Assembly: GCF_032191835.1 (NCBI RefSeq) | Contig: NC_083231.1 | Location: forward strand, 97,030,001 to 97,094,000 | Length of the DNA stretch: 64,000 nt | Direction of reading: 5' to 3' | DNA from: Heteronotia binoei | Lineage: Eukaryota | Part shown: piece after piece, positions 42,701 to 51,700 of the stretch | Position numbering within the stretch: position 1 is the first letter of the stretch | Layout of the letters: the number at the start of each line of letters is the position of its first letter | Made by a program: the position numbers

Positions 42701-45700
42701 TAGAATATATGTCAACAACATCATTCCCAATGATTTCAATACTTCCAATTCATCCTCTTGTTTCTGTGCTAGGTAAAGGTACAAGGGTAGACTGATACAC
42801 TTCTCACGTTATTACTGATATACTTCTTACTGATTTACTTAATAAAGATTTCTTATGACATGTAAACTACAGCCCACTTATCAGATGCAAAAAGTGTATC
42901 CTATACTGGTACACACGTATATGTGTACAAATATAAAATTACAAAATTGGCAGGTGGAATCTTTGTCCAGCCTGATCAGAGACAAACAAAATCTGGTGCT
43001 ATCTGGCCATGATCGTTAGGTAGTACACTAAGTTTGTGTAGAGAAAAGGAGATTTCCCCAGTGGATATCACAGAAGCTTTCAAGATCATCAGCAACACTA
43101 AGGGAGGCCATTTTGTTATCACTGTCGCCTCATAGCCTTTACCAGTCACCCCTGTCTTTTTTTGTTTTCAAATAAATCTTATCTTTATTGTCAGCTAGAA
43201 AAGTGGCATCAATAACAAAACAAACAATTAATGCCATTTGGGATTCTTGACTGGATTAGTCTTTTTTTTTTTTTTAACACTGCTCTAAAATAGAAGTTGT
43301 AGTGTGAGACTAATATAGGTGTAGATCACAGAGCTAATTGTTGCCAATCTCCTCCCTATTACCTAATGGAAATCAGCTCTTTAGCACCATTGTTTAGCCT
43401 GTGGGAAAAAGGGAATCAACTTACCCTGTGACTAGGGAGGAGGAAGGGAAAGGGGAAAGGTTACCTCTCCTAACATGGAATTCACATCTCAAGGAAATTC
43501 ATCCACATGGGCAAATGTCTAACAGAATCCCAGAAATTGGCAGAATTACTATCATGGGTACTTTCTCTGTTATTCTAACATAAATGGAGCCCTGACCTGG
43601 ATGACCCAGGAGAGCCTGATCTCACCACTAGGGATGGGCATGGATCAGGAAAATGCTGTTTGGTTTGGTTCTTGGACATGGCTGAACCATGAACCAAACC
43701 AAACCAAACCAGGAAGTTTGTGGCTCTTGGTCCCTCAGATCCTGTTGAAAGGGACTGAAACCCTTTAAACAGTGTTCACACAAAGCTTGAGAAACAGCTG
43801 AGTGACGGGGAGCAGCTTGCTGTTTCAGACTTGTTCAGTCCCTTTAAATAGTTGAGCGGCAGGGAGTGCTTCCTTGCTGCTCAGCTGTTTTTGTGGCTTT
43901 TGCAGGAAACAGAAAGCAGGAGTCCTTTTAAACCTCTTCCTGCTCCATCCACAAGTCACCATGAACCATGGAAGTTTGCAATGGTAGAATTGTCATGAAC
44001 TTCTGTTCATGAACCATAATAAGGGCAAAATTTGTGATGAATTTTGCTTCATGGTTTGGTTTGTGCCCATCCCTCCTCATCATATCTTGGAAGCTAAGCA
44101 AGTTAGACATATTTTATTTATTTATTTATTTATTTTATATCCCTCCCTCCCCACCGAAGCAGGCTCAGGGCAGCTCACAACAACAAAATAAAACAATCGA
44201 TTTAAAAATAGCATGACATTAATATGGCAATTTAAAAATCAATAATTAAAGGCTTAGTACTTGGGATAGGAAACCACTAAGGAAGTCCAGAGTTGTTAAA
44301 CAGAGGCAGACAATGGCAAATTACTTCATCTCTTGCCTTGAAAATCCTTTTGGGTCTCCAGAAGTTGGCTGCCACTTGATAGAACTTTCCATCATCAATG
44401 TAAATGTGTTGTTTTTTAAAAGGTGCAATCCTAAACAGTGTGTCTTCAATGGACTTAGAAAAGTGTCACTCTACTTAGGACAGCACTGTAAATCACCATG
44501 TGTTTATTATGCTGGCGTTTCCTCTCCTGTTCACTTCTACAAAAACCCAATCAACAAGCAATCTGCTCTCACAAGCAGTATTAACCTTGTGGTCACAAAT
44601 GTGCAGATCATCTTCTGAAAATTGCCGGGGGGTGGGTGAGGATCACAACTTCCAGTTTTCTACTCCACAGAACGGAAGAGGCAGTCTTCTCCACGTGGCT
44701 TGTTCTAAGCAGGGTTTTTGTCTCCTTAACTACCTTGCTTACTTCCACTCAAACTGATGCCTGTTATTTGCTTATGCAGCCAGAGCCCCTTAGGGCAGCA
44801 AGGAGAAACCAAAGGAGAGGCTGGCAGCCAAGAAGAACAGGTCAGGCTACAGGAGAAATGAGAAAACTAAAGCAACAGCTCACTTCAACAGGAGCTCTCT
44901 TTTTAATTTCTGAATAGTTGGTTATTTCTGAGTAATTGTCATTAAAATAGGATAATTTTAACAAGCCAACCACCCTATGAATACTCCCAGCTGGAATACT
45001 AAACAAACAAGAGGAGGGTGATCTGAGTCTCACTGGGAACTGTGGAAAGTGGGAGTTCCCACACGCCTTAGAGAACATGCCATGCAGGTGCACCGCACAA
45101 AGCTCTGCTCTATTTTAACGCAGAAAATTTGTACTTGCCATAGCAACTGCCACCTCCTGCGATACATCTCCTGTGGTGGCACCTTTGAGATGTGACACGC
45201 CTCCTCAGTGAGGTGCTTTCAGCAGCCCATCATGCAAATACGACTATTTTCCACAACATTTGTGTGCAGGCGTAATTTGATGTCTCAGCAGAGCCTTAAA
45301 TGCTCAGATCCATGCAGGCGTCCCAAAAGACAATCTGTGGAATGTGCACCTTGAAACTGCTTAACCTGACTGTAGTGTATGGCGTTCGTAGAACGCCATC
45401 ATTCAAGACAGCGCGACCATTTCGTTATAACGTACCATCGATAAAGCGTTAGTCCGCTAAAGCCGCGGAGGCAAAGGTGACAACCAGATGCCTCCGCGAA
45501 GAGCGCTGGTCATCCGCCAATCACAGTGAGTGGCGGGAAATACGGCTGGCCAGCATTGGACTGGCCAGCAGGGTGAATAGTTCCGGAGCTGTATATATGC
45601 GGGACCCGGCCCGCGTGTTCTCTCTCTTACCTCGTGTTTGTACCATGCAATAAACTATGTTGCCCGACTCGCGTCTCTCAGACTGGTACATAATAGTGGC

Positions 45701-48700: not shown

Positions 48701-51700
48701 GAAACGCACCCGGGCATTGTGAGGATGAAGGCCCTAGCCAGGAGCTATGTGTGGTGGCCGGGGATGGACAGAGAAATAGAGGACTGGGTCCGGAGATGCA
48801 GTGCGTGCCAGGAATCGCGGCCGGACCCACCCAGCGCCCCGGCCACAAGGTGGGAAACCACAAGGAAACCCTGGTCCAGGCTCCACATAGACTTCGCGGG
48901 GCCATTCCAGGGGCAGATATTCCTTATAATCGTGGACGCCTACACAAAATGGTTAGAGGTCCTCCCTGTAGCATCCACCTCCTCAGCAGCCGCCATCCGA
49001 GCCCTGCGCTGGGTCCTGTGCACCCACGGCATCCCAGACACCCTGGTCTCGGACAACGGGGCCGCCTTCACCTCGGGAGAGTTCCAGGCCTTCCTACAGA
49101 GGTACCTCATAAGGCACATCAGGTCGGCCCCCTTTCACCCCGCCACCAACGGCCAAGCCGAGCGGATGGTCCGCACCACCAAAGAGGCCCTGGGCAGGAT
49201 CGTGCAGGGCGACTGGGATCACAGGCTGGCCGCATTCCTATTCGACAACAGGGTCATCCCAAACCCTGTCACAGGGATCAGTCCAGCAGAGCTCCTCATG
49301 GGGCGCAAGCTCACCACAAGGCTAGACAGACTACACCCCGACCGAGCCTCTGACACACGAGGGTCCCCAGAGGTCCGCGAGGCAGCCAGGGGGTTCTTTG
49401 CCGGGGATCCAGTGTTCGCCCGCAACTACGCCTCGGGACCCGAGTGGGTGGCTGGGCGGGTGCTACGGGTCGTGGGCTCCCGTCACTATGAAGTATCCAC
49501 TGAGGGGGGCCAGATCCTACGCCGGCACATCGACCAGATGCGCCGCAGGACCCTACCCGAAGCACCCACAGAAGCAAGGGGGGCAGCCCAACCCGAGGAG
49601 CCTACCACAACCCTGCCGCCATCCATGACGCTGCCCCCTCCCGCAGGGCCAAACCAAGCCCCCGAACTCGGCCAGCAACACTCGGATGCTCAGGCTCCCG
49701 AGGAGACGCCGGGGCCCGAAGCCACCACGACTCCGCAGGCCACCCCCCGACGTTCGACTCGAGAGCGCCGGCCTCCCGCCTACCTCCAGGACTATGTTAC
49801 TAACTAAGGGGGGAGGAGTGTAGTGTATGGCGTTCATAGAATGCCATCATTCAAGACAGCGCGACCATTTCGTTATAACGTACCATCGATAAAGCGTTAG
49901 TCCGCTAAAGCCGCGGAGGCAAAGGTGACAACCAGATGCCTCCGCGAAGAGCGCTGGTCATCCGCCAATCACAGTGAGTGGCGGGAAATACGGCTGGCCA
50001 GCATTGGACTGGCCAGCAGGGTGAATAGTTCCGGAGCTGTATATATGCGGGACCCGGCCCGCGTGTTCTCTCTCTTACCTCGTGTTTGTACCATGCAATA
50101 AACTATGTTGCCCGACTTGCGTCTCTCAGACTGGTACATAATACTGACTATGGTCACAGCAAACATCTTGAAACCCTTTCAGAAATCCCTTCCTTAAACT
50201 GGTCTGCAAAACTATGGCTATCTCAAGGACTTCAAATCAGGGTCCTTCTGCATATGTAGGCACCCCTTTGAGCTGAATACAGGTTAGACTAAGCAACATT
50301 ATCTGCTCAAGGCTCTAGCATGGCTCCACTTCTTCTCTGGCCCATTGGTTCTCCTTGGTCTGGTTATAAATGTTTCCACTGCTTCTACCAGTGCAACAGC
50401 TGATCCTTTGCCTAGCAGGATCTTCCTGCATTAACCTCCAGACCTTCCTATCTGTTCTTGCTTTGCATCTTGCACCAAGACTTAGGGCTGCCAACTTCAG
50501 CTTGGGAAATTCCTGGATATATGGGGGCAGTGCATGTAGAAGAAGCTCAGTGGGGATATAATGCCATTGAGTCTACTTTTCAAAACAGCCTTTTCCTCCA
50601 GAGGCACTGGTTTCTGCAGCCTGGAGATCAGCTGCAATTCTGGGAGATCTCCAGCCACCACCTTGAGGTTCAGCAATCCCAAAATAGTCACATGGACTGG
50701 AGTGTGGAAAGCAAGCTGTGAAGCTCCGTGCCAAAAACTGCAATTGAATTTTTCTATAGGAGACTCATCCAGTGGAGGTTGGTTAGTGTCAAGTCACGAG
50801 TTGGTTAGTGAATGAATACATACAGGTATGAGCCAATGTTAATTTAGTGCACCTGGAGGATCAGGGCTTTTTTAGGTTTACATTTGAAGGGTTGCAATGC
50901 TGACTAAGCATAAGGGAGCATAGAGAGTGCATGGTTCTGAGTGGTGAAGTTGCTCTGGATTTATATAAGGTGGGCATTGCATATCTGTATAGCCACAGAA
51001 CTTTGGGAGGTTGGTTACCTGTTTTTAATGTTTGCATGTCAAACTTTTAAAATAGAACTTGGAAAAAGCAGCCAGTGAAACAGGACCTGCATACAAGTTT
51101 TGTCTGCTGCTGCACTGGGATGAGAAATGTATTGTAAATATACTTCTGTAATTCACTGCACTGGGACCAGTGTAAACCAATTGTGAAGACTGTGGATTGT
51201 GTTCTATGTAAAGATTGCTGGATCCCGGTGCGCTTCATATTTGTGAGCAACTGGACTGGTGTATGAGAGAAAGCTACAAGTACTATGTCAGTGTTTTGAA
51301 ACTTTATTATAAAGAACTTTGCATTGCTTCCAACAGACTCAAAAGGTATTTTTGGCATGGAGCTTCGCAGCTTGCTTTCCACCCCGCCTGGAGGTTGGCA
51401 ACCCTAACAGACCTCCAGGCACTACTTGGAGGTTGGCAACCCTGAGACTCCTAGTGCAACACCAACAGTGAACAAGTCCTATTGTCCTTACAGTACAATA
51501 CCATGGGTCTTTATCCAACAGTTCTTGCAGCTTGCTAACAATACCCAACCGAGTTCCTACACATAGTACTCCATTTGGGGTTGGTTCGTCTCCCTGTGAC
51601 CCAGCGCTGACAGGGAACCAAGCTAAGCACGCAGTAAATAAAACAGAAGGCCACTTCTCAGGAACAGCTTGCACTCAGCATGAGAAGGATCTATGTTGGC

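What the first reader, a model, noticed from the sequence alone, without database searches (positions are those of the whole stretch)
45371..50143. Very young, almost intact, ultra-compact Mag-like Gypsy retrotransposon inside a neuronal gene
Seen: LTRs 322/325 identical, perfect TSD, CpG-rich body in a CpG-poor host, and all gag/PR/RT/RH/IN motifs in one frame except a single indel. Gag starts in a perfect Kozak context and the pol stop overlaps the PPT, so there is no 3' spacer. Known: tandem CCHC knuckles, a single gag-pol ORF and no chromodomain fit the Mag branch. Inference: an active or recently active family, possibly polymorphic and possibly acquired horizontally; it may be undescribed for this lineage.
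Basis: partly seen in the sequence, partly recalled or inferred. Interest (0 to 1): 0.65.

Follow-up and report, generated by a model that had tools for sequence, protein, structure and literature searches.

The report
Young gecko Gypsy retrotransposon in GRID2 intron
This is a recently inserted, almost undamaged copy of an ordinary jumping gene (a Ty3/Gypsy LTR retrotransposon) lying backwards in an intron of a brain glutamate-receptor gene of a gecko-like lizard; its family is already visible in lizard genome annotations, though its wider lineage is oddly shared with ticks.

Summary
Window 45371-50143 is a 4,773-bp LTR retrotransposon. It has two 325-bp LTRs with 3 mismatches, a 5-bp target-site duplication (CTGAC), a tRNA-type primer-binding site and a polypurine tract overlapping the pol stop. 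It carries one gag-pol gene (zinc knuckles, protease, RT, RNase H, integrase). That gene has no internal stop and exactly one frameshift. CpG o/e is 0.81 in the element against 0.16 in the rest of the window.

The element lies antisense in a 27.5-kb intron between two adjacent exons of a GRID2-like (GluD2) gene.

The closest relatives are "K02A2.6-like" gene models of the gecko Heteronotia binoei (RT region 84-96% identical, 14 models), then lacertids and Gekko (about 80%).

- **Mag membership:** the single gag-pol ORF, the knuckles and the absence of chromodomain and env fit the Mag lineage. No Mag reference sequence could be fetched, so membership is not proven.
- **Compactness:** this is a lineage trait, not something special to this copy.
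- **Horizontal arrival:** a recent arrival of this family is not supported, because it is diversified within geckos.
- **Tick link:** hard-tick elements nest among squamate ones, an untested lead for older tick-squamate transfer.

Verdict: a new member of a known kind, of modest interest.

The parts
45366..45370 (.). Target-site duplication, left copy (CTGAC)
   Evidence: Identical 5-mer directly outside both LTRs.
45371..45695 (+). 5' LTR, 325 bp. It holds TATATA at 45592 and AATAAA at 45649, a 10-nt perfect hairpin at 45464-45498, and TG...TA ends.
   Evidence: Direct repeat, 322 of 325 identical to the 3' LTR; internal repeats. The U3/R/U5 split is inferred from the TATA and poly(A) signals only.
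45697..45714 (+). Primer-binding-site-like stretch beginning TGG, 1 nt after the 5' LTR
   Evidence: Read from the sequence. The tRNA was not assigned. ARAGORN found no tRNA gene in the window, and the one tRNA-like Rfam match at 32028-32099 does not fit it.
45810..49807 (+). gag-pol gene, first base to stop. Broken once, by one frameshift; no internal stop, and nothing missing relative to relatives.
   Evidence: Two open segments in two frames with 0 stops. In 7 of 7 relatives tested the two segments' matches leave no residue uncovered. Near-invariant family columns kept: 121 of 127 and 119 of 122.
46497..46595 (+). Nucleocapsid zinc knuckles: CX2CX3HX4C followed by the canonical CX2CX4HX4C
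   Evidence: Motif scan; Pfam zf-CCHC E 0.0008-0.002, just under the cut-off.
46716..46811 (+). Aspartic protease N-terminal part with the D-S-G active-site motif
   Evidence: Pfam Asp_protease_2 E 0.0027, below the cut-off; VDSGS motif; 83% identity to the H. binoei relative across this part.
47277..48340 (+). Reverse transcriptase plus RNase H block, given as one part
   Evidence: RVT_1 4e-20, RT_RNaseH_2 4e-34, RT_RNaseH 1e-32. The best solved relatives are the Ty3 Gag-Pol chain 7q5b and Ty3 RT 4ol8. The RT motif reads FFDD; its first column is F in 6 and Y in 19 of 25 relatives.
48659..49141 (+). Integrase: H2C2 zinc domain and catalytic core
   Evidence: Integrase_H2C2 8e-18, rve 5e-12; matches Ty3 and spumavirus integrase chains.
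49142..49804 (+). Integrase C-terminal tail of 221 aa, proline- and threonine-rich at its end; no chromodomain
   Evidence: No Pfam family even at E <= 1. The first ~140 aa of the tail align to the Zootoca relative P0002.
49806..49818 (+). Polypurine tract AAGGGGGGAGGAG, overlapping the pol stop and abutting the 3' LTR
   Evidence: Read from the sequence.
49819..50143 (+). 3' LTR, 325 bp
   Evidence: It carries the TpG/CpA form at all 3 differing sites.
50144..50148 (.). Target-site duplication, right copy (CTGAC)
58275..58472 (-). Host exon (approximate bounds), GRID2-like, ligand-binding domain part
   Evidence: Pfam Lig_chan-Glu_bd 2e-18. Matches GluD2 chain residues 424-489, E 3e-35, against E 2e-25 for GluD1.
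30418..30753 (-). Next host exon (approximate bounds), GRID2-like, end of the ligand-binding part plus the first membrane segment
   Evidence: Pfam Lig_chan 2e-11 and Lig_chan-Glu_bd 6e-9. Matches GluD2 residues 490-601, E 1e-67, against E 1e-33 for GluD1. Residue numbering continues from the other exon, so the two exons are adjacent.

Best explanation
Window 45371-50143 is one full-length genomic copy of a Ty3/Gypsy (Metaviridae-type) LTR retrotransposon. It belongs to the animal group that genome annotations call 'K02A2.6-like', which most likely corresponds to the Mag lineage. It is a member of a family shared with the gecko Heteronotia binoei. It inserted recently, antisense, into the 27.5-kb intron between two adjacent exons of a GRID2-like glutamate-receptor gene. 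How such an element works is established knowledge of LTR retrotransposons and is not shown here. The 5' LTR drives a terminally redundant RNA. One gag-pol polyprotein is made and cut by its own protease. A host tRNA bound at the PBS primes reverse transcription, and the polypurine tract primes the plus strand. Integrase inserts the DNA copy and creates the 5-bp duplication. This copy carries one frameshift in gag-pol, so as assembled it cannot make RNase H and integrase from its own message. It is therefore either a just-inactivated copy or an intact copy with an assembly error. Its effect on the host gene is probably nil, given its deep intronic, antisense position (inference).
For: Structure: LTRs, TSD, PBS and PPT all in place. 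Domain order knuckles-PR-RT-RH-IN. The best solved relative is Ty3 Gag-Pol; the two segments match consecutive parts of the same chain, 587-842 and 858-1323. Youth: 3 of 325 LTR differences, all CpG transitions, with 0 of 271 at non-CpG bases; CpG o/e 0.81 against 0.16. Near-intactness: 0 stops and 1 frameshift. In 7 of 7 relatives no residue is left uncovered between the two segments' matches. 240 of 249 near-invariant positions are kept. Family: in the RT region, 14 H. binoei proteins reach at best 96.1% and at median 91.9% identity. The window groups with them at bootstrap 99-100. 25 of 25 full-length relatives (P0002-P0026, 1,270-1,402 aa) hold gag, RT, RNase H and integrase parts in one protein. 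Host gene.
Against: No Mag, SURL or Jule reference could be included, so the clade label rests on shared traits and on one paper's remark. That paper links 'K02A2.6-like' annotations to the C-clade (PMC8905726, passages). The second knuckle has non-canonical spacing. Pfam does not recognise a capsid domain in gag; the only hit is a sub-threshold PNMA match, E 0.099. No copy with more than 96% identity was seen, but the protein database shows only one representative per 90% cluster, and the cluster look-up could not be made. Copy number and current activity are therefore unknown. The LTRs could have been homogenised by gene conversion, which would make the age an underestimate.
Confidence: 0.9

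Rival explanations
1. The copy is fully intact, and the single frameshift is an error of the assembly, so this would be a potentially competent copy of a currently active family.
For: The zone where both frames are open holds a short homopolymer run, a context prone to consensus errors. Everything else is undamaged: 0 stops, and 240 of 249 near-invariant positions kept. The LTRs differ only at CpG sites.
Against: Nothing in the window says the base calls are wrong. Real slippage mutations occur in the same context. One lesion within a few million years is also what decay predicts.
Confidence: 0.25
2. The change of frame is a programmed ribosomal frameshift, so the element would express RNase H and integrase at a lower level by design.
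For: A yes/no test found a canonical slippery heptamer, in the right register, in the 151-nt zone where both frames are open.
Against: By my rough estimate, such a heptamer is expected by chance about once in ten zones of this size. In 7 of 7 relatives tested, including the closest H. binoei ones, the sequence reads through in one frame. 25 of 25 full-length relatives are single proteins. From general knowledge (recalled), LTR elements that shift frames do so at the gag/pol boundary, not inside pol.
Confidence: 0.03
3. The family arrived in this gecko by recent horizontal transfer, which would explain the CpG-rich, GC-rich body in a CpG-poor genome.
For: There is a strong composition contrast. 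The wider lineage shows a tick-squamate pattern. The window's family is as close to lacertid elements (80.7% in RT) as to Gekko japonicus ones (80.0%), which is odd for strict vertical descent.
Against: The family is already diversified in H. binoei: 14 gene models, 84-96% identical in RT, with bootstrap 99-100 for the group. In the RT-only tree its sister is two Gekko japonicus sequences, bootstrap 98. That pattern points to long residence in gekkonids. High CpG is expected for any copy that has had little time to decay.
Confidence: 0.1
4. The stretch is an endogenous retrovirus or a domesticated host gene derived from a Gypsy element.
For: The integrase and RT match retroviral chains at lower scores. 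gag gives a weak PNMA-like hit.
Against: There is no room for env: gag-pol fills 3,998 of the 4,123 internal bases, and the stop overlaps the PPT. LTRs, TSD, PBS and PPT are all retained, and the frame is broken, which is the opposite of a domesticated gene. The best matches are Ty3 and Gypsy-type polyproteins.
Confidence: 0.01

Closest known systems
'K02A2.6-like' gene models of Heteronotia binoei (RefSeq annotation; e.g. P0065, P0058, P0057, P0001)
   Same: This is the same family by sequence. RT region: 14 proteins, best 96.1% and median 91.9% identity. PR-RT 83%, RNase H to integrase-zinc 89%, gag N-terminus 73% against P0001. They group with the window at bootstrap 99-100. P0001 has the same FFDD RT motif.
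   Different: They are partial or chimeric gene models without LTR context. None is closer than 96%. Whether the window comes from that species or from a relative is not known to me.
Lacertid and Gekko japonicus K02A2.6-like elements (e.g. Zootoca vivipara P0002, a cluster of 133 members)
   Same: Single gag-pol protein of about 1,350 aa with the same domain order. P0002 is 58% identical over the upstream segment and 70% over the downstream one. RT is about 80% identical. They are sister groups at bootstrap 98-100.
   Different: A different family by the 80% rule. The hosts are about 200 My apart (recalled), yet the lacertid elements are as similar as those of Gekko.
Mag lineage of Ty3/Gypsy (Mag of Bombyx, SURL, Jule of Xiphophorus; clades A, B, C) and the Steamer family of bivalves
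   Same: Single gag-pol ORF and an NC with two Cys-His arrays, as papers give for Mag elements (PMC2577118 and PMC8905726, passages). No chromodomain and no env. Size near 5 kb; the 4.8 kb of Jule is recalled, because that paper is not held. 'K02A2.6-like' annotations are tied to the C-clade in PMC8905726.
   Different: No reference sequence was compared. The PBS here (TGGCGACGAAGG...) is not the 12-nt Steamer PBS quoted in PMC8905726. The second knuckle has CX2CX3HX4C spacing.
Ty3 of Saccharomyces cerevisiae (solved structures 7q5b, 4ol8)
   Same: It is the best solved relative for both segments: RT E 2.5e-39, RNase H to integrase E 2.2e-36, on consecutive parts of one chain. It has the same PR-RT-RH-IN order.
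   Different: It is a distant relative. From general knowledge (recalled), Ty3 makes gag and pol in two frames and targets Pol III genes. The family here has one ORF and no known targeting.
BovB LINE, the textbook tick/squamate horizontally spread retrotransposon
   Same: Only the distribution pattern is shared: a retroelement lineage common to squamates and ticks. BovB papers appeared in the search listings.
   Different: BovB is a non-LTR element with a different mechanism. For the Gypsy lineage here, transfer is a lead from protein trees, not a demonstrated event.

Membership tests
Ty3/Gypsy LTR retrotransposon (Metaviridae type) | Two long terminal direct repeats flanked by a short target-site duplication | tested here: met
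   325-bp LTRs, 322 of 325 identical; 5-bp CTGAC on both sides.
Ty3/Gypsy LTR retrotransposon (Metaviridae type) | pol order protease - RT - RNase H - integrase (integrase last) | tested here: met
   Pfam hits in that order. The two segments match consecutive parts of the Ty3 Gag-Pol chain.
Ty3/Gypsy LTR retrotransposon (Metaviridae type) | tRNA primer-binding site next to the 5' LTR and polypurine tract next to the 3' LTR | tested here: inconclusive
   A TGG-initiated 18-nt stretch lies 1 nt after the LTR, and a 13-nt purine run abuts the 3' LTR. The matching tRNA could not be named, because no eukaryotic tRNA set was at hand.
Mag lineage (clades A/B/C) | gag and pol in one reading frame | tested here: met
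   25 of 25 full-length relatives are single proteins. In 7 of 7 tested, the relatives read straight through the point where this copy changes frame. This copy itself has one frameshift.
Mag lineage (clades A/B/C) | Nucleocapsid usually with two CCHC arrays (PMC2577118, passage) | tested here: inconclusive
   One canonical CX2CX4HX4C and one CX2CX3HX4C, 6 residues apart. Pfam scores only the canonical one.
Mag lineage (clades A/B/C) | RT/RNase H phylogeny groups with the Mag, SURL and Jule references | not testable with these tools
   No GyDB, Repbase or Dfam sequences are available, and no named Mag reference appeared among 56, 159 and 77 protein hits. The only link is indirect: the annotation 'K02A2.6-like' is said to relate to the C-clade (PMC8905726).
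Steamer family (C-clade, bivalves) | 12-nt PBS complementary to a Leu tRNA, as quoted in PMC8905726 | tested here: not met
   The PBS here reads TGGCGACGAAGG and differs from the quoted one. No bivalve protein was among the listed hits.
Chromoviruses (chromodomain Gypsy elements) | Chromodomain at the integrase C-terminus | tested here: not met
   No Chromo hit in the whole downstream segment, nor in its last 221 aa at E <= 1.
Errantiviruses / endogenous retroviruses | env-like third ORF between pol and the 3' LTR | tested here: not met
   The pol stop overlaps the PPT, which abuts the LTR, so there is no spacer.
GRID2 (GluD2) host gene | Exons match GluD2 better than other ionotropic glutamate receptors, with continuous residue numbering | tested here: met
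   E 3e-35 and 1e-67 for GluD2 against 2e-25 and 1e-33 for GluD1. Chain residues 424-489 then 490-601.

The most novel reading that the evidence does not exclude
The Gypsy lineage to which this element belongs has moved horizontally between ticks and squamate reptiles, as BovB LINEs are thought to have done. Hard-tick copies (Rhipicephalus, with related pieces in Dermacentor and Haemaphysalis) are 53-65% identical over most of their length to lizard and gecko copies. They are at most 41% identical to anything else found, and at most 38% to any named non-squamate taxon. In a pol tree of 91 sequences and 804 columns, the Rhipicephalus element sits inside an otherwise squamate or unnamed group (bootstrap 89). 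The soft tick Ornithodoros is next (93), and a parasitic nematode and a firefly follow (100). The tick copies lie on 100-300 Mb contigs. Three searches of the paper library found no report of this for an LTR element.
Probability: 0.3. Interest if true: 0.6.

Novelty: new member of a known kind. Interest (0 to 1): 0.3.

Why it matters
In itself it matters little. It documents that a Gypsy family of the K02A2.6-like (probably Mag) group was moving in a gekkonid lineage within roughly the last few million years. It also gives a clean full-length reference copy (LTRs, PBS, PPT, TSD) for repeat annotation of gecko genomes, where such copies are now labelled as 'uncharacterized proteins'. The insertion is a candidate presence/absence marker in a very large neuronal gene. 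If the tick link holds, this lineage would be an LTR-element counterpart to BovB for the study of parasite-mediated transfer between arthropods and reptiles.

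Tried and rejected
- **Programmed frameshift:** rejected, because relatives are single-frame.
- **Env-bearing retrovirus or domesticated gene:** rejected on anatomy.
- **Chromovirus:** rejected, no chromodomain.
- **Steamer family:** rejected on the PBS.
- **PBS donor:** looked for in the window and not found. ARAGORN found no tRNA. The single Rfam tRNA match is the head of a SINE-like repeat and does not fit.
- **Capsid domain in gag:** only a sub-threshold PNMA hit.
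- **Other LTR copies:** none in the window. A 37-nt LTR probe with up to 3 mismatches matched only the two LTRs.
- **Representative-library search of the downstream segment:** it showed only that the superfamily is huge (12,715 proteins at E <= 1e-30) and added nothing on the family.
- **Calls that could not be made:** the cluster-member look-up and the Atlas search.
- **Papers not held:** Volff et al. 2001 on Jule and Arriagada et al. 2014 on Steamer.
- **Paper passages that gave nothing on Mag in squamates:** PMC4350176, PMC5381603, PMC9025612 and PMC8303831.
- **Trees:** my own neighbour-joining trees with 100 bootstraps, built on sequences chosen by similarity to the query. Deep nodes were weak (bootstrap 7-56), and I draw nothing from them.

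Full report
**What is there**

A repeat search finds one pair of long direct repeats in 44000-51500. Aligned with their flanks, they are two 325-bp LTRs, 45371-45695 and 49819-50143, differing at 3 positions. Both are bounded by the same 5-mer, CTGAC, at 45366-45370 and 50144-50148.

One base after the 5' LTR a stretch starts with TGG, the usual start of a tRNA primer-binding site. Directly before the 3' LTR lies the purine run AAGGGGGGAGGAG. Its first two bases are the last two of the pol stop codon.

The LTR carries TATATA at 45592 and AATAAA at 45649, and its ends are TG...TA. A 37-nt LTR probe with up to 3 mismatches matches nowhere else in the window. The window has no N.

**Composition**

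| Region | GC | CpG o/e |
|---|---|---|
| Element | 0.604 | 0.81 |
| Rest of window | 0.418 | 0.16 |

The figures come; one search shows the same step in GC.

**Coding content**

Between the LTRs there is one gene on the + strand, 45810-49807. It starts at an ATG in the context gccgccATGG. It is open in two reading-frame segments with no internal stop. The gene is therefore broken exactly once, by a frameshift.

Pfam places the domains in this order:

| Domain | Pfam hit |
|---|---|
| Zinc knuckle | zf-CCHC, E 0.002, just below the cut-off |
| Aspartic protease | start of the domain, E 0.003, with D-S-G |
| Reverse transcriptase | RVT_1, 4e-20 |
| RNase H | RT_RNaseH_2, 4e-34 |
| Integrase zinc domain | Integrase_H2C2, 8e-18 |
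| Integrase core | rve, 5e-12 |

- There is one canonical CX2CX4HX4C knuckle. A CX2CX3HX4C array lies 6 residues upstream.
- The last 221 residues match no Pfam family even at E <= 1, so there is no chromodomain.
- There is no room for a third gene.
- The best solved relatives are the Ty3 Gag-Pol chain (7q5b) and Ty3 RT (4ol8). The two segments match consecutive parts of the Ty3 chain.

**How damaged is it**

Twenty-five full-length relatives (P0002-P0026, 1,270-1,402 aa) carry all these parts in a single protein.

For 7 of 7 relatives tested, the matches of the two segments leave no residue of the relative uncovered. Nothing is missing, and one change of frame accounts for the break.

At columns where at least 24 of those 25 relatives agree, the window keeps 121 of 127 residues in the upstream segment and 119 of 122 in the downstream one.

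The RT motif reads FFDD. Its first column is F in 6 and Y in 19 of 25 relatives, so this is a family variant and not a lesion.

The zone where both frames are open (151 nt) contains a short homopolymer run and, by a yes/no test, a canonical slippery heptamer. Because relatives are single-frame, I read the break as a mutation or an assembly error, not as a programmed shift.

**Age**

All three LTR differences are CpG transitions, with the CpG kept in the 5' LTR. None of the 271 non-CpG bases differs.

The raw divergence is 0.9%. With a neutral rate of about 1e-9 per site per year this means at most about 5 My. That rate is recalled and was not measured for this lineage. CpG sites decay roughly ten times faster (also recalled), so the true age is probably nearer 1-2 My or less. 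This is inference. Gene conversion between the LTRs would bias the estimate downward.

**Where it sits**

A Pfam scan of 122 open stretches of at least 78 codons outside the element found four with a family match. Two are reverse-transcriptase fragments, described under 'Seen in passing'. The other two are ionotropic-glutamate-receptor pieces, both on the minus strand.

I searched these two exons separately against solved structures:

| Exon (approximate) | GluD2 residues matched | E-value for GluD2 |
|---|---|---|
| 58275-58472 | 424-489 | 3e-35 |
| 30418-30753 | 490-601 | 1e-67 |

GluD1 matches far more weakly in both cases. The two exons are thus adjacent exons of a GRID2-like gene. The element lies antisense in the 27.5-kb intron between them. 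I did not make a joined exon model.

I do not take the window for human.

**Relatives**

Searches with the upstream segment returned 56 longer proteins and 159 proteins of similar length, of which 120 were listed. Almost all are annotated 'uncharacterized protein K02A2.6-like' or 'Gypsy retrotransposon integrase-like'.

In the RT region, 137 of 160 hits covered at least 90% of it. Best identities by taxon were as follows:

| Taxon | Best RT identity |
|---|---|
| Heteronotia binoei (14 proteins, median 91.9%) | 96.1% |
| Podarcis raffonei, Zootoca | 80.7% |
| Gekko japonicus | 80.0% |
| Eublepharis | 74.6% |
| Rhipicephalus microplus (tick) | 73.5% |
| Snakes | 64-71% |
| Photinus, Araneus, Trichuris | about 58% |

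I built my own neighbour-joining trees with 100 bootstraps:

- The window falls inside the H. binoei group, bootstrap 99 in the RT tree and 100 in the PR-RT tree.
- In the RT tree, two Gekko japonicus sequences join next (98).
- A lacertid group with two unnamed sequences joins after that (98-100).
- Deeper nodes are unsupported.

The family is therefore resident and diversified in gekkonid geckos. It is already visible in public annotation, although only as gene models.

**Classification**

Papers describe the Mag lineage as clades A, B and C, widespread in protostomes, echinoderms and vertebrates (PMC6238403, passages). Its nucleocapsids usually have two CCHC arrays (PMC2577118, passages). 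Its C-clade members such as Steamer have gag and pol in one ORF, and the annotation 'K02A2.6-like' is said to relate to that clade (PMC8905726, passages).

The element fits on four counts: one ORF, knuckles, no chromodomain and no env. Its PBS differs from the Steamer PBS quoted in that paper. No named Mag reference could be compared. I therefore rate 'Mag lineage' as likely (about 0.6) but not established.

The size of 4.8 kb is normal for the group. Unnamed full-length relatives sit on contigs of 4.0-5.3 kb. Jule is recalled as 4.8 kb, but that paper is not held; I saw only its title, in reference lists.

**Horizontal transfer**

For this family a recent arrival is not supported, as the relatives above show.

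For the wider lineage there is a lead. Searching back from the full-length Rhipicephalus microplus protein returned 77 hits:

- The closest named non-tick relatives are all squamates, 53-65% identical over 73-98% of the protein.
- The next named taxa are a sea cucumber and Xenopus at 38%, a salmonid at 32% and a pseudoscorpion at 27-28%.
- No other arthropod is close.

In a pol tree of 91 sequences and 804 columns, the Rhipicephalus element lies inside an otherwise squamate or unnamed group of 47 (bootstrap 89). Ornithodoros joins next (93), and then Trichuris and Photinus (100).

The caveats are serious:

- The sequences were gathered by similarity to the queries.
- The word-index search scored only the 8,000 best candidates.
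- Only proteins are available, so no synonymous-rate test could be done.
- The trees are simple distance trees.

Three searches of the paper library found BovB and other cases, but no LTR-element case linking ticks and squamates. Judged from the search listings alone, those papers do not cover it.

**What stayed unchecked**

- The copy number in the host genome.
- The empty site in other individuals or species.
- Any match to Repbase or Dfam.
- The tRNA that fits the PBS.
- Members of the 90% protein clusters (could not be made).
- The Atlas view of gag (could not be made).
- Supplementary files of papers, which were closed.
- The closed collections viral contigs and metagenome contigs were not used.
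- I ran no collection scan. The only open collection, genome contigs, holds bacterial and archaeal genomes and would not bear on a lizard element.

**Seen in passing**

- A tRNA-like SINE head at 32028-32099.
- A CpG-rich 620-bp block with inverted ends at 28414-29033.
- A LINE-type reverse-transcriptase frame at 52334-53449, and a fragment at 8474-8869.

**Verdict**

The element is a young, nearly intact Ty3/Gypsy retrotransposon of a known animal group, and a new member of that group rather than a new kind. The claims of horizontal origin and of special compactness do not hold for this family. The tick-squamate pattern of the lineage is the one thing here that deserves a proper follow-up.

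Noticed in passing
related proteins P0007, P0083, P0088, P0135, P0139, P0361, P0009 (no window coordinates): Hard-tick (Rhipicephalus, Dermacentor, Haemaphysalis) and soft-tick (Ornithodoros) genomes hold elements of the same lineage. From the tick side, the nearest named relatives are all squamates at 53-65% identity; every other named taxon is at 38% or below. In a pol tree the Rhipicephalus element nests in the squamate group, bootstrap 89.
   Followed up: partly
window 32028-32270 (+): Rfam tRNA match of 53 bits at 32028-32099 that ARAGORN does not call. It is followed by about 140 nt and an A-rich tail, so it looks like a tRNA-derived SINE copy. Its 3' end does not fit the element's PBS.
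   Followed up: partly
window 28386-29062: A GC-rich block (0.62) of about 620 bp at 28414-29033, in the CpG-richest 2-kb bin outside the element (o/e 0.41). It has 17-nt imperfect inverted ends (88%) and an internal 26-nt tandem duplication. It is flanked by a 28-nt direct repeat (89%). Its open frames match no Pfam family. It may be a young non-autonomous DNA transposon or a duplicated target; this is unexplained.
   Followed up: partly
window 52334-53449 (+), 8474-8869 (+): A 372-codon open frame with a strong RVT_1 match (2e-35) lies 2.2 kb downstream of the element on the same strand. No endonuclease domain was found upstream, so it looks like a 5'-truncated LINE. A second, shorter RVT_1 fragment (2.5e-7) lies at 8.5 kb.
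   Followed up: no
window 13412-13466 and 26097-26189: The same 22-nt unit (GTGAGCTACTGGCATTAAAG-like) occurs as a short tandem array at two places 12.7 kb apart. This suggests a dispersed repeat with an internal minisatellite.
   Followed up: no
window 45464-45498 and 45545-45570 (inside the 5' LTR; same in the 3' LTR): U3 holds a perfect 10-nt hairpin with a 15-nt loop and a duplicated CTGGCCAGCA motif just upstream of the TATA-like box. These may be regulatory sites of the LTR.
   Followed up: no
LTR positions 18, 24 and 300 (45388, 45394, 45670 versus the 3' LTR): All three LTR differences are CpG decays, and all three are on the 3' LTR side. With three events this is not significant (chance about 0.25), but it fits methylation-driven decay after insertion.
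   Followed up: yes
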